The notes under the pieces are model-generated. The model was not told the origin of the DNA. It did not search any database and saw only the letters and a list, made by a program, of their open reading frames with translations. The translations under genes and the position numbers were made by a program. From IMG/VR virus record IMGVR_UViG_2912101750_000002: DNA of 64,000 nt, one strand, 5' to 3'. Each line of letters opens with the position of its first letter. Position 1 is the first letter of the stretch. The stretch comes from a virus (Duplodnaviria > Caudoviricetes). Shown here one piece after another: positions 2,964 through 31,147 of the stretch.

Positions 2964-3284
2964 ATGAACGCAATGGTAATGCCAGAAACGGCAACCGAGG
3001 GCGGTGACGTCGGATGGAAGCAAGACGAAGATACTGATTGGCGATTCAAGCTAGGGCAGTGCGTATCGCATATTAGCCAAAACATGCCGTCGCTTGTGAT
3101 GACGAGGGTACGCACAAGTCGCGGCGTAGAGGTCTACGGTGTTCGCTCCTTCGCAACCGTGGATCCGTGCAGAGATCGCATGATTTCCGGCGACAGCCTG
3201 ATTGACGTCACACCAGGCAGCACACCGTGCCTGCAGTGCTTGCTGCATCAAACTGGTATGTGTCCTGGCGATAGGAAGGACTAG
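2964..3284 (+). CDS. hypothetical Cys-containing protein
   Basis: ORF with KFKLGQCV-like SH3-type start and CLQC motif. Confidence 0.5.
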   Translation: MNAMVMPETATEGGDVGWKQDEDTDWRFKLGQCVSHISQNMPSLVMTRVRTSRGVEVYGVRSFATVDPCRDRMISGDSLIDVTPGSTPCLQCLLHQTGMCPGDRKD

Positions 3285-3361
3285 CATTGCGGCCCGCCAG
3301 CCGCTTGCGGAGCTTGCTGTAGCAAGCTATAGGCCATGCGTGTTAATCGAGGGACATGCGC

Positions 3362-3769
3362 ATGGCCGCCACTATCGACAAACTACGACCAGACCTTTTG
3401 ACAAAGTCGGACGCCGAACTCGAGCGGCTGGCCGCAGAGATTGCTATGGCGCAAGCTGAGAAGAAGCGACTGGCTGATATCGCAGCCAAGGAAGAGCTAG
3501 CCGCAGAGGCGGCTACGCGCGTTGAGCGCGTGGTGGCTGACATCAAATGGCTTCATGACAATGGATTGCTGCCTGACCGGGTGGCGCAAGGCTTTAGCCG
3601 CGGCGATGGCATGTTCGTGCCTGGCATGATCCTGCGGGCGCCGACTGCGGAGTCGTTGGTCCCGCGAGCCGCCAAGCCGGCACGCGAAAAGAAGTTCCGT
3701 CGGCGGAAAGATCCGAAGACGGGCGAGTATGTGGCTAGCAAGGCTGCCAAGAAGGCTGGCGTGGCTTAA
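3362..3769 (+). CDS. coiled-coil basic protein, H-NS/HvrA-like architecture
   Basis: N-terminal SDAELERLAAEI coiled coil; basic C-terminus KFRRRKDPKTGE. Confidence 0.6.
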   Translation: MAATIDKLRPDLLTKSDAELERLAAEIAMAQAEKKRLADIAAKEELAAEAATRVERVVADIKWLHDNGLLPDRVAQGFSRGDGMFVPGMILRAPTAESLVPRAAKPAREKKFRRRKDPKTGEYVASKAAKKAGVA

Positions 3770-3771
3770 CG

Positions 3772-3804
3772 AAAAAGCCGCCACAACCTTTCGGAAGTGG
3801 CGGC
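3772..3804 (-). terminator. rho-independent terminator of leftward accessory operon
   Basis: GCCGCCAC/GTGGCGGC stem plus T5 on minus strand. Confidence 0.8.
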
Positions 3805-3808
3805 GCAT

Positions 3809-3890
3809 GATGAAACGGGCAGGATTCGAACCTGCTATCTAAGGCCGCCGAAGCGTCCCACGCTGTACCCGCCAAGCTCCACGTTTCATC
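3809..3890 (-). ncRNA. tRNA-like RNA lacking an anticodon loop
   Basis: perfect T-arm GCAGG-TTCGAAT-CCTGC; terminal stem GATGAAACG/CGTTTCATC; C(TTCG)G tetraloop in anticodon position. Confidence 0.6.
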
Positions 3891-3897
3891 TTGGTTA

Positions 3898-4527
3898 TTA
3901 TCCCCACCTCACCAGCGCTTCGTCAACCTTGCTGTAAAGCGCAAGTATGTCGCTCTCATTCGAAATCACAATGTCCGGAATGAAGTCCATGCGCTCCGAC
4001 TCGTGCGCTCCGGCAAGCCCCCCGCGACCAATGATGCGGTAGATGTCGCCGCCCATCTTGCGCACTGTTGCCGCCTCATTCGGGAAGCGACAGTCGTCAA
4101 CTACCACGCGGCCTCCGTCCTCGATGACCGCATTAGCTGCTGCACGCCACAGGCCAGTCCAGAACTCCTCGCCGATGATGTTGCGGCCCCACTCGGTGCC
4201 GATCGTCTGCATGGCGTAACGCGGTGTATGCCCGCAGAGCAAGTCGCACGGCACCTCCTTCAGGTCGCCTTCAATCTGCTTGGCGGATAGCCCTAGCGCG
4301 GCCATGGCGGCCTTCAGCGGCCCAGCAAAGCGGACGCGCGTGTAGCCGTGGATGTCTTGTAGATACTCAGCGACGGTGCTCTTGCCGCTGCCTGCTACGC
4401 CGCTAAGGGCGACGATGAGCGGGAGTTTGTCGACGTTGTGGTGATAGTGCGAGGCGGGGGGCGGCTTGACGTTATCGTTAGCTGGAATGAACCCCCAAGG
4501 CGTGTAAAATTCTGCAAAGCCGGTCAT
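3898..4527 (-). CDS. deoxynucleoside monophosphate kinase
   Basis: GVAGSGKST P-loop, FAGPLK, TPRYAMQTIGTEWGR, DDCRFPNE, HESE. Confidence 0.9.
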   Translation of the reverse strand: MTGFAEFYTPWGFIPANDNVKPPPASHYHHNVDKLPLIVALSGVAGSGKSTVAEYLQDIHGYTRVRFAGPLKAAMAALGLSAKQIEGDLKEVPCDLLCGHTPRYAMQTIGTEWGRNIIGEEFWTGLWRAAANAVIEDGGRVVVDDCRFPNEAATVRKMGGDIYRIIGRGGLAGAHESERMDFIPDIVISNESDILALYSKVDEALVRWG

Positions 4528-4967
4528 GCCGCCTCCTTCACAATCGTCTTGTCGAGAAGATAGCAGAGCGCGCGATTGTATTTCGCCATGCGCGTGGCGT
4601 AGTCTGGATCGTTGGCTGGCCGTCGGCTTGGATCCATGTTGTCGTTCAGGTCGGCAATCTTCACCATCTTGCCGATAGGGTTGGCCTTGGCGCGCGCGAC
4701 GTAGTCGAAATAATCTTCGCCTTCGCGGCGAGTAACAGAGTCGACCGCCTCTATCACCTCGATGCTGAAGCCTCCATCGTGGATGTTGTACCATCCGAAT
4801 GCGTCATCTTCTGCTACGTCATGCAGAACGCCAACGATGCGCGACACGTCATCGGTCTGCGCAAGCATGACGCGCAAAGGATGAAGGATATACGGCTCCC
4901 CGCTCTTATCGACTTGGCCTTCGTGTGCGCTCGCCGCCACCTGGATTGCCGTAGATAGACCCATCAC
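4524..4967 (-). CDS. HD-domain (p)ppGpp hydrolase-like protein (SpoT-HD/Mesh1-like)
   Basis: AHEGQVDKSGEPYILHP, LHDVAED, VKIADLNDN. Confidence 0.8.
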   Translation of the reverse strand: MMGLSTAIQVAASAHEGQVDKSGEPYILHPLRVMLAQTDDVSRIVGVLHDVAEDDAFGWYNIHDGGFSIEVIEAVDSVTRREGEDYFDYVARAKANPIGKMVKIADLNDNMDPSRRPANDPDYATRMAKYNRALCYLLDKTIVKEAA

Positions 4968-5365
4968 TCAATCTCCACTTTCGTCTTCTCTCTCGACGGC
5001 GCACGAACCGGCAGTTTCTTGCCACGGCGCGGACCTTCTGGTGCGTCGATGGTTCTTGTTGGATCTGCGGCGATCGACCGAAACACCGCAATCGTATCCT
5101 TGACCAGCGGACGAAACCGCTTGGCGTTGTATGGTGCGTCTGGCTGACCCCATGCCTCACCAAATCCTGAGTTGACGCCCTCAAGCTTCACGCCAAGATA
5201 ATCGCCAAAGACGTAGTGCGTAGCCATGCCTACCCACCGTAGACGATATATAGTGCCTTCCGTGATGTTGGCGTCCTTGACTGACGTGCCGTCGGCGAGC
5301 GGCACTTGATCGTCAATGCAGATGACTTCTTGGCCGGGGTATAGGTCGCTTCGGGATTCGGTCAT
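4964..5365 (-). CDS. hypothetical phage protein
   Basis: translationally coupled ORF in operon. Confidence 0.65.
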   Translation of the reverse strand: MTESRSDLYPGQEVICIDDQVPLADGTSVKDANITEGTIYRLRWVGMATHYVFGDYLGVKLEGVNSGFGEAWGQPDAPYNAKRFRPLVKDTIAVFRSIAADPTRTIDAPEGPRRGKKLPVRAPSREKTKVEIE

Positions 5366-5562
5366 GTGAGAAACACCCCATCAATCTTGTTCTTGCCGCG
5401 AACGCCATTCGGGTCGCGCGGGTACACCTCCATGCCTTCAACGTCGGTAACACAGATGTTCGATAAAGGACTGTCGTCCATCAGTTGTCCGCCAGTGATG
5501 CGGATGTCGCCATAAATGGCTTTGATCTTTTCAAGCTCGCGCACCGTCTCAGAGATTTTCAC
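5362..5562 (-). CDS. hypothetical protein
   Basis: coupled ORF. Confidence 0.55.
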   Translation of the reverse strand: MKISETVRELEKIKAIYGDIRITGGQLMDDSPLSNICVTDVEGMEVYPRDPNGVRGKNKIDGVFLT

Positions 5563-6356
5563 CCCGCCACCCCCATCTTTTGAAGCATCACATACGTCTT
5601 CAGGAAAGCGTCCTCAGCCTGCTCCGGCGACCAGAACTGCAACTCGACTCCCAGCGGATCATTGTGCTTTGCGTGCCAGGCCATCGGACGCATGTTGACC
5701 AACTCGTCGCCAATTATCCGGTTGTCTGCCTCGTGAACTACGTCCGGCATGACTTCCGGCAAGCCGAACCGTGCCGCGATCACTTTCCATAGTGCCGCCT
5801 CGTGCCGTTGATACTCAGGCAGGCTGCGCTTGACCGGGCGCGGCATGTCCACCAAATAGGCCTCTGTCGCGTCGTGCAGCAGGCCGCAAAGAGCGTCTGC
5901 TGCGGGGCCGTGCCACCATATCCAGTTGGCAATCAGGACCGAATGCTCAGCCACGCTGTAGAACTGCTTGCAGTGGCCGGCAAATCTACATTGCAGGCTA
6001 AGGCTGTGGGCGACGTCCTCGATGTGAACCTCGTCCTGACGGGCATCTAAGGGCCAGAACAGCCTAGCGGAAAAGGTCTGCAAAGTGTCGCCCTTGCGCT
6101 TTGTTGCGTCAGCAACCGTGCGCAAGTTGTCATTGGAGGGAAACGGGTCTAGGCCGATCAGACGCCTAGCACGGTTAACTGTCATCCTTCCCGATCTGAC
6201 TTCTGCCTCTAGGTCGAGTGGACGTATGGTATGTTCCTCCAAAGGCCCAAACGTCTCCTGCGCCGTCGTGTCGTGCTCGACGTAGCGGCGGGCGACGGAG
6301 TCCCAATACCGAATAGACCTTGGGTCGACTGGTGCAAAATCAATATGCATCCCCAT
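5559..6356 (-). CDS. YfbR-like HD 5'-deoxynucleotidase with N-terminal extension
   Basis: RFAGHCKQFYSVAEHS, LLHDATEAYLVDMPRPVK. Confidence 0.85.
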   Translation of the reverse strand: MGMHIDFAPVDPRSIRYWDSVARRYVEHDTTAQETFGPLEEHTIRPLDLEAEVRSGRMTVNRARRLIGLDPFPSNDNLRTVADATKRKGDTLQTFSARLFWPLDARQDEVHIEDVAHSLSLQCRFAGHCKQFYSVAEHSVLIANWIWWHGPAADALCGLLHDATEAYLVDMPRPVKRSLPEYQRHEAALWKVIAARFGLPEVMPDVVHEADNRIIGDELVNMRPMAWHAKHNDPLGVELQFWSPEQAEDAFLKTYVMLQKMGVAG

Positions 6357-6568
6357 CACGCAACACCTGCAATCTCTAGGCGCTTTCCGCCGTTGGCTGG
6401 ACCATAGTCGACAACCTTGACGTACCGACCATCCACAATCTTCACGCCGCGCATGGCACATGGGCAAAGCGGCTGGCCATTCTGTGGGCCGATGCAGCCG
6501 CACAGATGCACGTTGTCGTTCGCTGATGCCTGCCATCCGATCTTGTATGCATGCGGGTTGTGTTTCAC
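6356..6568 (-). CDS. small Cys-rich protein
   Basis: CGCIGPQNGQPLCPC; coupled. Confidence 0.65.
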   Translation of the reverse strand: MKHNPHAYKIGWQASANDNVHLCGCIGPQNGQPLCPCAMRGVKIVDGRYVKVVDYGPANGGKRLEIAGVA

Positions 6569-7827
6569 GCCGCCATCTCCTCTTTCCGATTGTCATTCAC
6601 GGAGGTTCGATAGCCGCCAACCATTCCTGGTGTGAGCGTCAACCGCGCCACCTCGCCGTGTCTCTTGCTGTACGTGATGACCTTTGCCGACCGCCCGGAC
6701 AGCCATCCGCCATTCGCAGCGTAGGCATCCGGTGCGGCAAGCGTCTCGTGCCGCTCGACCTTCATCAGGTTGGTCGACTTCAGTTCATCGGAATGCAGGT
6801 GACCAAGATGTGCGTAGGAGAACTTGGTCTTGCCGTACATCTCGCGGAATTTGCCAGCGAAGACAGAGTCGACATTTCCTATTTTACGCTTGTGACCGTG
6901 ATGCACGAAGATGGACACATCTCCATGCTCGTAGGCGTAATATGTGCCCGCAGAGCTATCGACTGTGACTCTCGGCTCATCCTCGAAGAACGACGCAAAC
7001 ATCTCACGCAACCAAGCCTCGCTTGCCGGGTCATGGTTGGCGTCGGCCATGATGATGTGCACGAATTCGTGCTTCTCGAGCAGCATTTTGATGACGCGAC
7101 GCAGCGTCCTGATGACGACGCGAATAACCTTCGGCAGACGGCTGTCCGCATCGAGGATGTGGCCGCTCGTTGGCGTCTTGGATTCGAAGCCGTCGTAGTG
7201 GAGCAGGTCGCCAATCTGCGCGAAGATTGCCGTCTGCGCAGGTGGCGCCAAGTCGATCGCTGCGGCAAACCAATCAAGCAAAAGCTTCTCGGCGATCGGC
7301 AGGTCGTAGTCGGCGCCGGTTTCCTCACGCCAGCTCAGCATTCCGAAATGCGCGTCGGTTACGGCATAGAGGTTGAGCAGTTCCGCAACGGTCGAACCTG
7401 GCGCAGGTGTCGGCGTGGCGCGCGGCAGTTCTTCCTTTAGCGCGTCTACTGCTGCCCGCATGGCGGCGAGCAGATACTCTTTTGACGGCTCGCTGATGCG
7501 CCAGCCTGCAATGCGTCGGCCTTCGCTATCAGTGAGAGCGGAATCGCGCTTAAGGGCGAAGCCCTCCGGGATCTCGTGTACCTCGCCGGCCGCCTTGGTC
7601 TGCTTCACCCAATGGCCGTCAACCTTGCTCGATACCGACTTGATGGCAAACCCATCAAGCACCGGCTTCGTTCCCATCATGCCGCGCTCTGCGGCAAGCC
7701 GGATATGACGCTGTACGGATTCCCTCGAAATGCCTTCCGCCTTAGCGGTTGCTGACTGGTTCTTGTCGTTTGCCAGGTATGCGGCCAGCGTGGCGGCAAC
7801 CCGCTCGTCTGTTACGGGAGGAGTCAA
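6565..7827 (-). CDS. HTH plus calcineurin-like metallophosphoesterase
   Basis: N-terminal HTH; DAHFG, GDLLH, ANHD, HHGH, GHLH. Confidence 0.8.
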   Translation of the reverse strand: MTPPVTDERVAATLAAYLANDKNQSATAKAEGISRESVQRHIRLAAERGMMGTKPVLDGFAIKSVSSKVDGHWVKQTKAAGEVHEIPEGFALKRDSALTDSEGRRIAGWRISEPSKEYLLAAMRAAVDALKEELPRATPTPAPGSTVAELLNLYAVTDAHFGMLSWREETGADYDLPIAEKLLLDWFAAAIDLAPPAQTAIFAQIGDLLHYDGFESKTPTSGHILDADSRLPKVIRVVIRTLRRVIKMLLEKHEFVHIIMADANHDPASEAWLREMFASFFEDEPRVTVDSSAGTYYAYEHGDVSIFVHHGHKRKIGNVDSVFAGKFREMYGKTKFSYAHLGHLHSDELKSTNLMKVERHETLAAPDAYAANGGWLSGRSAKVITYSKRHGEVARLTLTPGMVGGYRTSVNDNRKEEMAA

Positions 7828-27203: not shown

Positions 27204-27827
27204 TTACACCCTCATGAAGGCCAGCCATGTCCCCTCCACATGCTGGATTGGGCGGCCGGCGTCGTAATATTCTTCTAGGACTTCGCGCACGTCGACGGTG
27301 CCGAGGTGATGGTAGTCGTGCCAGGCAATGATGCCGCCAGGGCGCACAATGCGCGTGGCCAAGAGGGTATCCTTGACAACGCCAGCGCGTCCGTGATCGC
27401 CATCGATAAACACGAAGTCGCACTTGGGCAAATCGTCGGCGGCCAAATCATGCGAACCACGGCGCGCAATCAGCAGTCGGAAGCGCGGATCGTCCAGTGC
27501 GAAGTGCGCTGGCTGTTGAGGCACCTCGCGCCGTTGAACAGCCTTGTCTGTGACATAGCCTTGCGGCACATCAATGCCGACGTAGCGCTCAATGGTGTCA
27601 ATGTTTAGCATCAGCGCTTTGGCTGTGCGCCCTTCGTTGACGCCAAACTCAACAACGACCTTCGGCTTGGCCAAGCGCGCTAGCGCAACAACGGCTTCCA
27701 ACTCGCCAGGATTCATGAACCGCGTGTTAAGACCGGTTTTATCGATTGGCGTGCAGCCAATACTATCCTGCGTCACGGCCGGAATTTGCAGCGACAAAGG
27801 ATTGTAGAAGTTCGGTTGCGGCGCCAA
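27204..27827 (-). CDS. class I SAM methyltransferase (Methyltransf_24-like; start uncertain)
   Basis: VVEFGVNEGRT, DFVFIDGDH, WHDY. Confidence 0.85.
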   Translation of the reverse strand: MAPQPNFYNPLSLQIPAVTQDSIGCTPIDKTGLNTRFMNPGELEAVVALARLAKPKVVVEFGVNEGRTAKALMLNIDTIERYVGIDVPQGYVTDKAVQRREVPQQPAHFALDDPRFRLLIARRGSHDLAADDLPKCDFVFIDGDHGRAGVVKDTLLATRIVRPGGIIAWHDYHHLGTVDVREVLEEYYDAGRPIQHVEGTWLAFMRV

Positions 27828-28698
27828 TATCTATTTCCTTTTGGCAGTCATGCGTGTGACTGAAGCACTTGCACGGCTTGATTGGATCAATACCCAGATA
27901 AGGACTGTAGCGAGCGCCCCCGGCGAATGACGTCGAGTCCTCATAGCCACCGAATATGCATGTAACCGGGGTGCCCACAGCCTGCGCTAGGATCACAGCA
28001 AAGCCAGGCGAGGAGTAGACCATGGCCGCACGCGAGACCAACGCAGCCAACGTCTCAAAGTCAAGTTCGCCAGAGTGGCATTCGACATCGGCCTTGATCG
28101 GATGGCCAACCATCCATTCCTTGCCAGGCACCAAGTCCGCCACTGAAACGACGAAATAGTTGTCGCGTATCGACCCCAAAAGCGACGCATAAGCGTCATA
28201 ATCCGGATTTCTTGCCTGGCAGCCGCCCCACTCAGTGCGCTCGTTAAGAGGCCTGTAAACAAGTATCGGCTTGGTTGGCTGCCAGAATTCAATTAGCCTG
28301 TCGGCGCGTGCGGCCCATTCATCCGGGATAGGCAGGCGGAAATCGGCCTTCCCGTAGCCCACATCGGCGGTGCGGCACATCGCGGCCAAGACAGAACCGC
28401 ACTCGCGCACCAAGTCGGGCGTGTAGGAAATCTGCATTTGCCTGGCGATCGGCACACTGCCGCGCCAGAACAGGCCGCGCTCCCTATCGGCGTTTTTCGT
28501 CTGCGTCCGCAGCACGGTTCGCTTGTGAAGAACCTTCAGCCCCTCGGCAATCAAATCATGATATGGCGCAATCCAAGAGCTTTCGAGATAGACGTCGAAG
28601 CGCGGCATCAACTGGCGAATTACGGCCCGCTGGTGGAGATTATCGCCGAGGCCGTGCATTCCGCGGATTAGCAGCGGACGCTTTTCGGTGGCAAGCAT
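27763..28698 (-). CDS. GT9/heptosyltransferase-like glycosyltransferase
   Basis: HGLGDNL N-terminal motif; LAALVSRA..LAQAVGTP..IFG. Confidence 0.75.
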   Translation of the reverse strand: MLATEKRPLLIRGMHGLGDNLHQRAVIRQLMPRFDVYLESSWIAPYHDLIAEGLKVLHKRTVLRTQTKNADRERGLFWRGSVPIARQMQISYTPDLVRECGSVLAAMCRTADVGYGKADFRLPIPDEWAARADRLIEFWQPTKPILVYRPLNERTEWGGCQARNPDYDAYASLLGSIRDNYFVVSVADLVPGKEWMVGHPIKADVECHSGELDFETLAALVSRAAMVYSSPGFAVILAQAVGTPVTCIFGGYEDSTSFAGGARYSPYLGIDPIKPCKCFSHTHDCQKEIDIGAATELLQSFVAANSGRDAG

Positions 28699-29039
28699 TA
28701 GGCGCATTCCACATCAATGGTGCGCCACACACGGTAAGGTGCCAGAAGTGCCCTTACGGCTCGCGGCAGCACGGCATCACCCTTGCTTTCTGGATCCGCC
28801 TCACGATTTTCGTAAAGGTCGCCGACGAGTAGCAAAACCGCCGCCGTAATGGCTGGCGTAACTTCGATAGCCGTTCCGTCATCACCAGACGGCTCACCCC
28901 CTTCGGCGTAGACTTCGCGGTCAACATATTCGGTCACGATGGTTTCGGCGGCAGCCTGGTAGGCCGCAATCGTGTCGTCATCATCCAAGAAATCTAGGCG
29001 GAGGTGTTTCTTCACCAAGTCAATATCAAGCAACGACAC
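28698..29039 (-). CDS. head-tail connector (HK97 gp6-like)
   Basis: VKKHLRLD, AVLLLVGDLYENRE, LLAPYR. Confidence 0.9.
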   Translation of the reverse strand: MSLLDIDLVKKHLRLDFLDDDDTIAAYQAAAETIVTEYVDREVYAEGGEPSGDDGTAIEVTPAITAAVLLLVGDLYENREADPESKGDAVLPRAVRALLAPYRVWRTIDVECA

Positions 29040-29673
29040 TGGCGCGCTCCGTACATGCCGCAAGCGCGGCGCTAAATGTCATCTTTGGGTATGCCGTAAG
29101 CGCACTGTCTGGACTCGCATTAATTACGCGCACGCCCATGCGCTCCAGCAAGGGCGCCTGACCGTCAATCACGCCGCGCCAACGCGCCAAGCTCGTGCGC
29201 GACGGATTATTAAGCCCACCACCATGCTTGCCGTGCCAGTGGATGCCGGCACGGTCGTGCATGTCGTACCCAACCAGAATTATGTTCCGGCAGCCAAATT
29301 GCGCAGCGAGGTTTAAAGCCTGGAATCCCGAATTGCCGCCTATGCCTATTGTGCCAAATTTATGCACAAGGATTTCATCGCGGCGCATGTCTATCTTGAT
29401 AGGGCGAACGCCCCATTTGCCGTCTCGTACATCGCCGCCAATTCGTAGGCCGGCAAAATCTGTGCGGCCCTGATTGTGCGCCCACCAGTCGTAGTCACAG
29501 GCATAAAGAACGTCAGCCCACGGCGCTAGCCGATAGCCGTTGTTTACGACTATGACTTTGTGCTTGCCGCGCGCTTCGTGTAAGTCCGCTTCGGCCGCGC
29601 TTGGTCCTCCTGCGACGATGATGCAGGTTTCTCCAAGCCAACGTGGCCACCAGCTTGCGGCACCATAAAAGGG
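29026..29673 (-). CDS. DUF115/MptE-like (Maf/GT29-like fold) domain, probably reached by -1 frameshift
   Basis: TCIIVAGGPS, VIVVNN, PWADVLYACD, GGNSGFQALNLA, LVGYDM; no ATG/GTG/TTG before the first motifs. Confidence 0.75.
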   Translation of the reverse strand, partial: PFYGAASWWPRWLGETCIIVAGGPSAAEADLHEARGKHKVIVVNNGYRLAPWADVLYACDYDWWAHNQGRTDFAGLRIGGDVRDGKWGVRPIKIDMRRDEILVHKFGTIGIGGNSGFQALNLAAQFGCRNIILVGYDMHDRAGIHWHGKHGGGLNNPSRTSLARWRGVIDGQAPLLERMGVRVINASPDSALTAYPKMTFSAALAACTERASVVA

Positions 29674-29876
29674 TCGTTGGGCTTACCGTCCTCCGCGTTG
29701 TCATTTGCGGCCAGAAAGACGATCGGAGCCGCAGCGGAATCTTCAGGCTCTGGCAAATGCACCGCATAGCCCATGTTTATGAGATCGCGAGCCTTGTGGT
29801 CGTCCTCTTCGTAAACCGTACCCTTCTTTGTGGTGACGTTGCCGTCAAGCAGGGTCTTTAGGGCTTGGATTCTCAT
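29550..29876 (-). CDS. small capsid-adjacent protein
   Basis: MRIQALK..KGTVYE...ARDLINMGYA; SD GGAG; follows capsid gene. Confidence 0.75.
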   Translation of the reverse strand: MRIQALKTLLDGNVTTKKGTVYEEDDHKARDLINMGYAVHLPEPEDSAAAPIVFLAANDNAEDGKPNDPFMVPQAGGHVGLEKPASSSQEDQARPKRTYTKRAASTKS

Positions 29877-29896
29877 TATAGCTCCGGAGAAGAGGT

Positions 29897-29918
29897 GGGG
29901 CGGCCCGAAAGCCGCCCC
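29897..29918 (-). terminator. hairpin after major capsid gene
   Basis: GGGGCGGC/GCCGCCCC stem, weak U tract. Confidence 0.55.
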
Positions 29919-29926
29919 TTTGGCCG

Positions 29927-31147
29927 TTAAGCCGCAGTCGTGATAGTGTCGATATCGCCAGTCACGAAGGCTTCGGGGCGATACACGGCAAGGGCCAGAC
30001 GCTCTTCGATGCGGAGCGTCATCATGTTCTTCTCGAAATCGTCCGAGTTCTCGGTCGACAGAAGAACCTCGACGCCCATGCGATCGAAGATCTGTGCGCC
30101 GAGATTGAAGGCGCCAGTCAGGAACTCGCCAGCAGCCATCGCCTGCGTCTGCACAACCGGCAGACCCCACAGCGTCGGACCAATCGGGGACTGCGCGTTG
30201 CCGACGATGTAACGGCCTTCGCTGTCCTTGGTCAGTTCGATGCGCGCCCAATCGATCGGATTGAGAACGATGCCGCTTGCCGGGTACTCGGCCAGGATAA
30301 CCTGGAGGAGTGCGAGGCGCACGCGGTCGATGGCGGTTTCACCAGTGGCGTTGAACGCCGGAGCGAACGCGGTAGCCTGCGGCAGAATGCCGTTGAGGTT
30401 CTGGCCAGTGCCATTGCCGTTCAGAAGCTGCGTCTCTTCGACGTACTTCAGACCATATGTGCCGCGCGCGTTGATATAGCTGGCCAGCGCCGGAGCGTCG
30501 TCCATGATCTGGCGCGAAGCCTTGAAGATATGGGCAATCGTGCGCACCGGAGTGGTGAACAGGTTGAAGGTAAGGTCAGACTTGGGCTTGGTCGCGCCTT
30601 CAGTCACCGGACGGGCATTGTTGGTGAAGCCCGTTTCCTTCACGTATTCGACCGAGCTTGATGCGGTCTGGCCGGGGGCAATCAGATCGCGGATGGTAAG
30701 CTGACGGTTCGGAGGCGTAACGATGCCGGGAACGCGAGCGCCGGGAACCAGCGACGTGCCAGCCGAGCGACCGGCACCAACGGTGGTGTTGCCGGAGGTG
30801 ATGTCCGCACGGTCAACGCCGACACGAATGGCACCGCGCCAGCCGCCCGACTTGTCGGTGCTCTTGAACGACTCGGACGCAACCAGATGGTCGCCGAGGT
30901 CCATGCCTTCGGACTCAACAACGTCACGCTCACGGGCAGCGCGCTTTTCAAGCTCGCTAACGCGCGTGGTGGCTTCACCAAGCTCGGTCAGAGCCTTGTC
31001 GACCTTAGTCTTCAGTTCCGCCGAGGTTTCGCCGGTTGCGGCGAGCTTAGCGGTGAAGTCGGCACCGAGATTACCAACCTGCTCCTTGATGGAAGCAAGC
31101 GAAGTACCAAGCTCACCGATCTTATCGGCAAGTGCATTATCAGCCAT
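29927..31147 (-). CDS. major capsid protein, HK97 fold
   Basis: delta-domain coiled coil, LTIRDLI, EGATKP, LWGLPVV, EERLAL..RPEAF. Confidence 0.96.
   Translation of the reverse strand: MADNALADKIGELGTSLASIKEQVGNLGADFTAKLAATGETSAELKTKVDKALTELGEATTRVSELEKRAARERDVVESEGMDLGDHLVASESFKSTDKSGGWRGAIRVGVDRADITSGNTTVGAGRSAGTSLVPGARVPGIVTPPNRQLTIRDLIAPGQTASSSVEYVKETGFTNNARPVTEGATKPKSDLTFNLFTTPVRTIAHIFKASRQIMDDAPALASYINARGTYGLKYVEETQLLNGNGTGQNLNGILPQATAFAPAFNATGETAIDRVRLALLQVILAEYPASGIVLNPIDWARIELTKDSEGRYIVGNAQSPIGPTLWGLPVVQTQAMAAGEFLTGAFNLGAQIFDRMGVEVLLSTENSDDFEKNMMTLRIEERLALAVYRPEAFVTGDIDTITTAA

What the first reader, a model, noticed from the sequence alone, without database searches (positions are those of the whole stretch)
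29026..29876. Hidden programmed -1 frameshift fusing a capsid-adjacent protein to an enzyme domain
Seen: the listed 120-aa ORF is only the tail of a frame that opens after a TAA near 29685 and encodes WWPRWLGETCIIVAGGPS...VIVVNNGYRLAPWADVLYACD, with no ATG/GTG/TTG before 29388. Just inside that frame the upstream ORF reads GAC CCT TTT ATG, a perfect C CCU UUU slippery heptamer (29673-29667). A possible pseudoknot follows 5 nt later (GCCGC/GTGGC stem; loop AAGC pairing with downstream GCTT). Predicted products: 108 aa and a fusion of about 283 aa. Inference: the small domain targets a minority enzyme-bearing form to the capsid at a fixed ratio.
Basis: partly seen in the sequence, partly recalled or inferred. 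Interest (0 to 1): 0.85.

Follow-up and report, generated by a model that had tools for sequence, protein, structure and literature searches.

The report
Conserved frameshift joins head protein to glycosyltransferase
In this prophage the small gene after the capsid gene most likely makes two proteins: a 108-residue one and, when the ribosome slips back one base at CCCTTTT, a 283-residue fusion to a sugar-transferase-like enzyme that has no start codon, a layout genome annotation misses.

Summary
On the minus strand a 108-aa ORF (29876-29550) follows the capsid gene. It carries an in-phase C CCT TTT heptamer (29673-29667). The -1 frame opens three codons earlier and runs to 29026 with no ATG/GTG/TTG before 29388.

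That frame encodes a complete Maf/CstII-like transferase fold. Its conserved N-terminus can only be translated if ribosomes enter the frame at the heptamer.

The layout recurs. Of 81 classifiable loci, 34 lack a usable start, and 18 of these have an in-phase CCCTTTN. So does phage TvV-S20. None of 44 loci with their own start has one. Other relatives are ordinary in-frame fusions, so the fused protein is a real product. Substitution patterns switch from the 0 to the -1 frame across the site. This excludes an indel or a pseudogene.

The proposed pseudoknot is not supported. Capsid targeting at a fixed ratio remains untested inference.

I found no paper describing this frameshift. Earlier follow-ups of this scan reported the same recoding on four other genomes.

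The parts
29927..31147 (-). Major capsid protein gene (406 aa), immediately upstream; context
   Evidence: Pfam Phage_capsid PF05065, E 1.6e-61
29550..29876 (-). 0-frame ORF 'S', 108 aa. It has an N-terminal small domain, a linker, and a 38-residue tail read out of frame over the start of the enzyme domain
   Evidence: Residues 1-43/48 match phrog_2616 (E 1.1e-4) and phrog_5463 (E 5.9e-4), both of unknown function
29742..29876 (-). Small N-terminal domain (about 45 aa, strands then one helix), DUF7210-like
   Evidence: It aligns with the N-domain of natural in-frame fusions. Fusion model P0014 has pLDDT 86-92 over residues 1-40. Leads to DUF7210 are weak: Pfam E 0.047-0.16 on relatives and none for the window's own copy, plus BFVD and Atlas structural hits
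29683..29685 (-). TAA that closes the -1 frame three codons before the slip site
29667..29673 (-). Slippery heptamer C CCT TTT, in phase with the 0 frame
   Evidence: Conserved as in-phase C CCT TTN in 18 of 34 start-less loci (the window among them) and in phage TvV-S20
29634..29657 (-). Candidate downstream hairpin, starting 9 nt after the heptamer. Not significant in the window
   Evidence: MFE fold, z +0.75. The related 8-bp hairpin in close relatives is 83.9% paired against 21-43% when slid, with one compensatory pair
29026..29682 (-). -1 frame: complete Maf/CstII/MptE-like transferase domain with no initiation codon before 29388
   Evidence: phrog_4603 E 1.9e-45, residues 23-209 matching profile positions 1-175 of 178. 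Model pLDDT 95.8. Z 15.0 to Maf 5mu5
29026..29876 (-). Whole recoded gene: predicted transframe product S-E of 283 aa
   Evidence: Derived. Natural in-frame equivalents of 247-272 aa exist
28698..29063 (-). gp6-like head-tail connector gene, overlapping the end of the enzyme frame; context
   Evidence: Pfam PF05135 E 4.8e-9; phrog_40 E 1.7e-26
27204..28707 (-). Two further genes of the likely modification cassette: a 314-aa phrog_6804 protein (27763-28707) and a Methyltransf_24 protein (27204-27827)
   Evidence: No NCBIfam or PDB sequence match for the 314-aa protein

Best explanation
The gene after the capsid gene is decoded in two ways.

**Standard decoding.** Most ribosomes read the 0 frame and make S, a 108-aa protein. 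S has a small DUF7210-like domain, a linker and a basic out-of-frame tail.

**Frameshift decoding.** A fraction of ribosomes slip back one base on C CCU UUU (29673-29667). The tRNA-Pro re-pairs from CCU to CCC and the tRNA-Phe from UUU to UUU. These ribosomes continue in the -1 frame and make S-E, a 283-aa fusion of the same small domain to a Maf/CstII-like nucleotide-sugar-transferase-fold enzyme that has no start codon.

**What is shown.**
- The anatomy of the site.
- Its conservation in relatives.
- The switch of coding constraint from the 0 frame to the -1 frame.
- The fold of the enzyme domain.
- The existence of natural in-frame S-E fusions.

**What is inferred.**
- That slippage happens, and at what rate.
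- That E, with the neighbouring methyltransferase and phrog_6804 protein, modifies (probably glycosylates) virion proteins.
- That the shared S domain brings the enzyme to whatever free S binds, by analogy with lambda G/GT. I put this last point at about 1 in 3.
For: 1. **Anatomy of the site.** The heptamer is in phase. The -1 frame opens 3 codons before it and has no canonical start until 29388.

2. **The N-terminus must be translated.** The segment upstream of 29388 is part of the enzyme. phrog_4603 aligns from residue 23. Standalone homologs begin M..(P)DWWPDW.GETC only 3-8 residues before the motif. Model pLDDT is 97 for residues 11-20.

3. **Called relatives are truncated.** All 10 fetched relatives at 66-77% identity were called N-truncated, at 156-190 aa.

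4. **Their DNA shows why.** L003, L004, L005, L007 and L083 keep GAC CCT TTY in phase, and four of the five have no start in the enzyme frame (L004 has only chance starts 56 or more codons upstream). In L005 the -1 frame opens exactly at the heptamer.

5. **Tally of loci.** Of 96 sources (95 loci and the window), 81 had the GGPS motif.
   - 32 had no canonical start and 2 had only far-upstream ones; 18 of these 34 carry an in-phase CCCTTTN.
   - 0 of the 44 loci with their own start do.

6. **An isolated phage.** TvV-S20 has C CCT TTG preceded by three TGA codons in the -1 frame, and its enzyme is annotated truncated.

7. **A residue signature.** The -1 frame reads Pro then Phe or Tyr just before the W motif in nearly all start-less loci (exceptions are given under evidence against). 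In-frame fusions lack this, and so do the standalone starts I checked by eye, apart from P0078, which may itself be frameshift-type. This points to a nucleotide-level constraint, not a protein one.

8. **Switch of coding constraint.** Variable columns by codon position:
   - small ORF, 0 frame: 20/14/38;
   - overlap, -1 frame: 8/3/13, against 3/13/8 when read in the 0 frame;
   - after the overlap: 60/44/127.

9. **The fusion is a real product.** Nine natural in-frame S-E fusions of 247-272 aa exist. Their N-domain aligns with S.

10. **S and E are never separate neighbours.** None of the 41 upstream ORFs found next to the 42 loci with their own start gave a meaningful S-domain match.

11. 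**No indel in this genome.** An independent assembly of the probable source sample is identical across the whole stretch.
Against: - **No direct evidence.** There is no protein or ribosome data. No RNA run was listed, and the other runs did not cover the site.
- **No convincing stimulator in the window.** z is +0.75. RNAalifold gave a positive covariation term. A hairpin seen in close relatives is weak in the window, with 6 of 8 pairs by my reading of A2.
- **16 of 34 start-less loci lack a canonical CCCTTTN.**
  - Nine loci have C CCU AYN; this count includes L022 and L023, which one search scored as having their own start.
  - Three have C CCU UCN.
  - Three have U CCU UUU.
  - Two have C CCA AAR.
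  - One has G CCA AAA.

  So either the essential slip is only C CCU, or some copies use another route or are decaying.
- **The classification has limits.** It rests on my own regular expressions. 15 loci had no motif and 3 lay at contig ends.
- **The loci are not independent.** A quick tree needs at least 4 changes of layout on well-supported branches.
Confidence: 0.82

Rival explanations
1. The enzyme is made on its own by non-canonical initiation inside the -1 frame, for example at the ATC/ATT Ile codons of the C-I-I-V strand. No frameshift occurs.
For: In the window a GGAG lies 8 nt before ATC (GGAGAAACCTGCATC; read). An ATY Ile codon is kept at that place in the close relatives. The public record of this gene appears to start at a non-standard codon, giving a 175-aa product (P0003).
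Against: Such a start would delete the W-x-P-x-W-x-G-E-T segment. That segment is nearly invariant across 95 homologs (W11, P13, W15). It evolves under -1 frame constraint and is confidently packed in the model. By my reading, no ATG/GTG/TTG or other near-cognate start codon lies between the -1 frame stop and the W motif in the window, L005 or TvV-S20. This rival does not explain why the -1 frame opens at the heptamer, nor the Pro-Phe/Tyr signature.
Confidence: 0.06
2. The frame break is damage: a sequencing or assembly indel, or a decaying prophage gene. Nothing functional is made from 29389-29682.
For: The gene sits in a prophage. The enzyme was not found in 35 of 36 same-genus genomes searched; one had a weak 34% match. 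Annotation pipelines call only truncated products.
Against: The same break, at the same place and with the same heptamer, recurs in loci whose enzyme is only 40-75% identical to the window's. These come from metagenomes, isolates and an isolated phage. The -1 frame stays open for about 200 codons under purifying selection. An independent assembly shows no indel.
Confidence: 0.03
3. Frameshifting is real, but the essential event is a single-tRNA slip of tRNA-Pro on C CCU in the P site. The following UUU is kept mainly because the fusion needs an aromatic residue there, or for another unknown reason. It is not kept as the second half of a tandem slip.
For: An in-phase C CCU followed by non-slippery codons occurs in 12 frameshift-type loci:
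- ACG, ATT, ACC or ACT in L006, L008, L084, L011, L012, L022, L023, L041 and L089;
- TCT or TCG in L024, L025 and L087.

In all of them the -1 frame then reads Tyr or Phe.
Against: The majority class has a full X XXY YYZ heptamer (18 of 34 loci plus TvV-S20). Two loci have the canonical C CCA AAR instead. Three loci (L014-L016) have U CCU UUU, where only the A-site slip is cognate. In-frame fusions, and the standalone starts I checked by eye apart from P0078, have no aromatic residue at that place, so a protein requirement is unlikely.
Confidence: 0.15

Closest known systems
Tail assembly chaperone G/GT -1 frameshift of lambda-like phages (recalled from the literature; mentioned in passages of PMC10885494 seen)
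   Same: It is a -1 slip on an X XXY YYZ heptamer near the end of a small morphogenetic gene. It yields two proteins that share an N-terminal domain, in a ratio set by frameshift efficiency. It is conserved by position rather than by sequence and is often missed by annotation.
   Different: The genome position differs: after the capsid gene, not between the tail tube and tape measure genes. No homology was found. The extension here is an enzyme fold (Maf/CstII-like), not a structural binding domain. Relatives here also exist as in-frame fusions and as standalone enzymes.
Frameshift-extended capsid proteins (T7 10A/10B; Lactobacillus phage A2 major head protein, Garcia et al. 2004, seen only as a reference-list entry in PMC10885494; details recalled)
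   Same: A -1 frameshift in the head module produces a minor, C-terminally extended form of a head-module protein.
   Different: There the extended protein is the capsid protein itself, and the extension is not an enzyme. Here the 0-frame product is a separate 108-aa protein of unknown role.
Maf flagellin glycosyltransferases and CstI/CstII sialyltransferases (PDB 5mu5, 2p2v, 1ro7/1ro8)
   Same: The -1 frame domain has the same fold:
- Z 15.0, rmsd 3.2 A over 182 residues to Maf;
- Z 12.6 to Cst-I (2p2v) and Z 12.5 to CstII (1ro8).

It shares the G-P-S nucleotide-binding start.
   Different: Sequence identity is only 13-16%. The match to Pfam MptE-like is below the curated cut-off (25.4 against 34.6 bits). 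The domain is much smaller than Maf (632 aa). Donor and acceptor are unknown. The archaeal kinase MptE (8sd5, Z 11.3) shares the fold too, so transferase chemistry is not proven.
Virion glycosylation by mycobacteriophage-encoded glycosyltransferases (work recalled; the phrase occurs in papers listed, seen as a search listing only)
   Same: Phage-encoded transferases and a methyltransferase lie beside the capsid gene, so virion proteins are the probable acceptor.
   Different: The enzyme families and hosts differ. As far as my searches show, no frameshift has been reported there.

Membership tests
Programmed -1 ribosomal frameshift site (X XXY YYZ type) | Slippery heptamer in phase with the 0 frame | tested here: met
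   GAC CCT TTT ATG gives C CCT TTT at 29673-29667
Programmed -1 ribosomal frameshift site (X XXY YYZ type) | A -1 ORF that overlaps the end of the 0-frame ORF, encodes a real domain and has no initiation codon | tested here: met
   The frame opens at 29682 and the first ATG/GTG/TTG is at 29388. The domain starts upstream of that
Programmed -1 ribosomal frameshift site (X XXY YYZ type) | Site and frame layout conserved in diverged homologs | tested here: met
   18 of 34 start-less loci have an in-phase CCCTTTN, against 0 of 44 loci with their own start. TvV-S20 has it too. The remainder carry C CCU or C CCA variants
Programmed -1 ribosomal frameshift site (X XXY YYZ type) | Coding constraint switches from the 0 frame to the -1 frame at the site | tested here: met
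   Variable columns by codon position are 20/14/38 upstream in the 0 frame. In the overlap they are 8/3/13 in the -1 frame against 3/13/8 in the 0 frame (7 close relatives only)
Programmed -1 ribosomal frameshift site (X XXY YYZ type) | Stimulatory element: a downstream hairpin or pseudoknot, or an upstream SD-like sequence | tested here: inconclusive
   Window fold z +0.75. The alifold covariation term is positive. The close-clade hairpin is 83.9% paired with one compensatory pair. The stem in the second group is no better than slid controls. Upstream GGAGG-like words were seen by eye only
Programmed -1 ribosomal frameshift site (X XXY YYZ type) | Transframe protein or frameshifted ribosomes observed | not testable with these tools
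   No RNA or proteome data were available; no RNA holder was listed
Pfam MptE-like (PF01973, formerly DUF115) | Score at or above the curated gathering cut-off | tested here: not met
   25.4 bits against a cut-off of 34.6, and only residues 111-142 match. I therefore file it as Maf/CstII/MptE-like by fold, not as a curated Pfam member. Several homologs carry a precomputed PF01973 hit
PHROG 4603 ('alpha-2,3-sialyltransferase' by annotation) | Full-length profile match | tested here: met
   E 1.9e-45; residues 23-209 match profile positions 1-175 of 178. The name is an annotation, not a tested activity
Maf/CstII-type (GT42-like) sugar-nucleotide transferase fold | Structural similarity across the catalytic domain | tested here: met
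   Model pLDDT 95.8. VIA-align gives Z 15.0 to 5mu5, 12.6 to 2p2v and 12.5 to 1ro8. Foldseek E 5e-4 to 1ro7
Maf/CstII-type (GT42-like) sugar-nucleotide transferase fold | Transfer of a CMP-activated nonulosonic acid to an acceptor | not testable with these tools
   Needs an enzyme assay. The MptE kinase shares the fold (Z 11.3)
Pfam DUF7210 (PF23843), for the small N-domain | Score at or above the curated cut-off | tested here: not met
   The window's copy has no hit at E up to 10. Relatives score 12-13.7 bits against a cut-off of 27. Structural leads only: Atlas TM 0.61; BFVD DUF7210 proteins at prob 1.0 over 37-49 columns
Lambda-type tail assembly chaperone G/GT | Position between the tail tube and tape measure genes, and homology to G/T | tested here: not met
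   The gene lies between the capsid and head-tail connector genes. No chaperone family was hit in Pfam or PHROGs. The likeness is one of logic only

The most novel reading that the evidence does not exclude
S is a capsid-binding, decoration-like module. Frameshifting places a fixed minority of S-E on assembling heads, so a Maf-like glycosyltransferase is tethered to its own substrate and modifies the capsid surface in cis. This would be a stoichiometrically metered, virion-tethered enzyme.

A second novel element is the conserved C CCU A-Y-N class. It would be a natural P-site-only -1 site with an unexplained requirement for a UAY or UUY codon in the new frame.
Probability: 0.25. Interest if true: 0.8.

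Novelty: new member of a known kind. Interest (0 to 1): 0.62.

Why it matters
**Annotation.** If true, this adds a widespread and so far unannotated recoding event to the short list of conserved phage frameshifts. It would correct the annotation of many prophage and phage genomes, where the enzyme is called truncated or hypothetical. Examples are TvV-S20 and the truncated proteins.

**Biology.** It gives a natural series for studying why a phage meters an enzyme against its carrier domain:
- frameshift fusion;
- in-frame fusion;
- standalone enzyme with no S domain.

It also points to enzymatic modification of virions in alphaproteobacterial phages. Such modification could affect host recognition, stability or defence evasion.

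Tried and rejected
I used the search for related loci instead.
The question of S binding the capsid was left untested, and no other tool was tried for it.

**Searches that gave nothing useful**
- The small domain alone against longer proteins gave no hits. The profile search gave 5 hits, all long 0-frame products. No capsid-fused form was found. This is weak evidence, as the tool itself warns.
- The profile search of 1.84 billion representatives was meant for the small domain. Sequence weighting turned the enzyme columns of the seven full-length fusions into profile positions (255 in all), so it mostly found the enzyme family: 6177 proteins at E up to 0.001.

**RNA structure**
- RNAalifold consensus was not convincing.
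- An 11-bp long-range stem in the second subgroup is no better than the same structure slid by 3 columns either way.

**Sequencing runs**
- No RNA holder was listed.
- Contigs of X3, X4 and X5 do not cover 29667-29673.

**Other checks**
- NCBIfam gave nothing for the enzyme, the 314-aa protein, the methyltransferase or the 130-aa protein.
- A PDB sequence search of the 314-aa protein gave nothing.
- I rejected transcriptional slippage by reasoning alone: a run of four T is far shorter than known slippage tracts. This rests on recalled knowledge.

**Literature.** Searches were search listings. Searches were passage searches. One search found no mention of glycosyltransferase, sialyltransferase or decoration in the held first 300,000 characters of the 2016 recoding review PMC5009743. 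None describes this frameshift.

**The tree.** It is the quick version, because the careful search did not finish. L010 and L028, which lie at contig ends, were labelled 'own' by default. That inflates the count of changes.
Full report
**Observation.**
- The major capsid gene (31147-29927; PF05065, E 1.6e-61) is followed by a 108-aa ORF from ATG 29876 to TAG 29550.
- Its 0 frame reads GAC CCT TTT ATG, so CCCTTTT at 29673-29667 is an in-phase X XXY YYZ heptamer.
- The -1 frame is closed by TAA at 29685-29683. It opens at 29682 and runs 218 codons to the TGA at 29028-29026.
- The first ATG/GTG/TTG in that frame is at 29388.
- The heptamer by itself is not remarkable: 6 copies in the window against 5.6 expected.

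**What the two frames encode.**

The -1 frame:
- It matches PHROG 4603 from residue 23 to 209, covering profile positions 1-175 of 178, at E 1.9e-45.
- It matches Pfam MptE-like only weakly and below the cut-off.
- A model built on 95 homologs is very confident: pLDDT 95.8, and 97 for residues 11-20.
- The model superposes best on the Maf flagellin glycosyltransferase 5mu5 (Z 15.0, rmsd 3.2 A, 182 residues). Next come Cst-I and CstII sialyltransferases (Z 12.6, 12.5) and the MptE kinase (Z 11.3).
- The segment upstream of the first start codon holds the W-x-P-x-W-x-G-E-T motif and the G-P-S strand. These are nearly invariant in the family. The 120-aa ORF from 29388 therefore cannot be the functional product.

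The 0-frame ORF:
- It begins with a domain of about 45 residues that matches two PHROGs of unknown function.
- That domain is a weak, sub-threshold look-alike of DUF7210.

**Relatives.** Among 1198 homologs, three layouts appear.
- The distant ones (about 50-55% identity) are standalone proteins of 205-220 aa. They start a few residues before the W motif.
- Others are ordinary in-frame fusions of 247-272 aa. Their N-terminus aligns with the small ORF: P0014, P0017, P0018, P0019, P0023, P0024, P0076, P0113 and P0117.
- The closest ones (66-77% identity) were all called N-truncated.

I fetched DNA with the search for related loci: 80 of 179 metagenome loci and 15 genome loci. In L003, L004, L005, L007 and L083 the small ORF reads GAC CCT TTY in phase, and the enzyme frame opens 0-3 codons before it in four of the five (L004 is open far upstream by chance). 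In those four no start codon precedes the W motif; L004 has only chance starts 56 or more codons upstream. In L005 the -1 stop abuts the heptamer.

**Tally.** Of 96 sources (95 loci and the window), 81 had a recognisable G-P-S motif with an open enzyme frame; 15 did not match my pattern.
- 32 had no canonical start upstream, and 2 had only chance starts far upstream.
- 44 had a start of their own.
- 3 ran off a contig end.
- 18 of the 34 start-less loci have an in-phase CCCTTTN between the -1 stop and the W motif. None of the 44 with their own start does.

The isolated phage TvV-S20 (NC_020840) has the same layout. Its site is C CCT TTG preceded by three TGA codons in the -1 frame, and its enzyme is annotated as a truncated 156-aa CDS.

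The start-less loci span 40-75% identity to the window's enzyme. On a quick tree they are interspersed with the self-starting ones: at least 4 changes are forced by well-supported branches, 12 by parsimony, against a shuffled mean of 27.

**Site variants.** The other start-less loci carry one of these sites:
- U CCU UUU (L014-16);
- C CCU UCN (L024, L025, L087);
- C CCU AYN (L006, L008, L084 from Paracoccus denitrificans, L011, L012, L022, L023, L041, L089);
- C CCA AAR (L070, L092);
- G CCA AAA (L094).

Apart from the CCA class, the -1 frame then reads Pro followed by Phe or Tyr. In-frame fusions lack that pair of residues, and so do the standalone starts I checked by eye, apart from P0078. 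That argues for a constraint on the nucleotides rather than on the protein. It remains open whether the common core is a single-tRNA slip on C CCU.

**Selection.** I compared the window with six close relatives. Variable alignment columns by codon position are:
- 20/14/38 in the small ORF read in the 0 frame;
- 8/3/13 in the 22-codon overlap read in the -1 frame, against 3/13/8 read in the 0 frame;
- 60/44/127 further on in the -1 frame.

Purifying selection therefore changes frame across the heptamer.

**Stimulators.** No stimulatory element is established.
- The window's 60 nt after the site fold no better than shuffles (z +0.75).
- An 8-bp hairpin 6 nt after the heptamer is strong in L003-L006. 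It is kept in 83.9% of cells against 21-43% when slid, with one compensatory change that lies in the window itself. With seven related sequences this is only suggestive.
- A long stem in a second subgroup fails the slide control.

**Alternatives.**
- An indel or a pseudogene is excluded by the conservation above and by an identical independent assembly.
- Internal non-canonical initiation would remove a conserved, structured segment, and no near-cognate codon lies in the short open stretch.
- Termination-reinitiation does not fit, because the 0-frame stop lies 22-23 codons past the G-P-S motif.

**Function.**

Shown:
- The fold.
- The position of the gene between the capsid and gp6-like connector genes.
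- Its neighbours: a phrog_6804 protein and a Methyltransf_24 methyltransferase.
- A similar cassette in TvV-S20, with a second paralog, a glycosyl transferase and a methyltransferase.
- In 11 of 20 frameshift-type loci examined, a capsid homolog ends 40-100 nt before the small ORF.
- None of the 41 upstream ORFs found next to the 42 self-starting loci gave a meaningful S-domain match. Those enzymes follow connector or collagen-like genes. In this sample, S and E are thus linked covalently or not at all.

Inferred:
- The enzyme modifies virion proteins.
- S gives it its address.

One lead, not verified: a 29%-identical homolog in Pseudomonas phage PAJU2 is annotated 'structural protein'.

**Novelty.** My searches found no description of this frameshift. 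They comprise the listings and the passage searches. Supplements were not seen. Earlier follow-ups in this scan reached the same reading on four other genomes. Those are AI notes, not independent evidence, and I formed my reading before consulting them.

**Limits.**
- The classification uses my own patterns.
- The loci are related to one another.
- No expression or protein data exist.
- Frameshift efficiency is unknown.
- Capsid binding by S is untested.

Noticed in passing
window 29890-29918 (minus strand): A G+C-rich inverted repeat (8-bp stem, 4-nt loop by eye) lies between the capsid stop and the small ORF's ribosome-binding site. No T run follows it. It may be a partial terminator or an RNA-stability element that lowers expression of everything after the capsid gene.
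   Followed up: no
window 29550-29666 (0-frame tail); loci: The out-of-frame tail of the 0-frame product ends in a cluster of basic residues in the window and in many diverged loci. Its stop falls 22-24 codons past the G-P-S motif in most loci. I did not resolve whether this is a by-product of the enzyme frame or a selected feature of the short product.
   Followed up: partly
window 29551-29553; protein P0003: The public record of this gene appears to be a 175-aa product that starts at a non-standard codon overlapping the 0-frame stop. It lacks the G-P-S strand, so it is a likely mis-annotation.
   Followed up: no
window 29682-29700 and relatives: A GGAGG-like word lies 16 nt upstream of the heptamer in the window. 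Similar GGAGG or GGTGAG words lie 7-12 nt upstream in L003, L004, L007 and L083. This could be an upstream SD-like stimulator. It was seen by eye only and there is no control.
   Followed up: no
L098 (TvV-S20, NC_020840) 3106-6649: After the frameshift gene this phage carries a second sialyltransferase-like paralog, a glycosyl transferase and a methyltransferase. The record names a green alga as host although the genome is a tailed-phage genome.
   Followed up: partly
L099 (Pseudomonas phage PAJU2) 2989-3558: A 29%-identical homolog of the enzyme (ORF010), with a start of its own, sits after the head-tail adaptor and is annotated 'structural protein'. If that rests on virion proteomics, enzymes of this family travel in virions. 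The source paper was not in the library.
   Followed up: no
L032, L033, L040, L043-L045, L047, L053, L057, L058, L069, L075, L078, L080, L081: Many self-starting homologs lie directly after genes with long collagen-like G-x-y repeats (GKDG and similar). This hints that collagen-like head or fibre proteins could be acceptors.
   Followed up: no
window 29026-29063: The enzyme frame's last codons overlap the start of the gp6-like head-tail connector gene. This suggests translational coupling of the connector to the minority -1 frame or to the preceding ORF.
   Followed up: no
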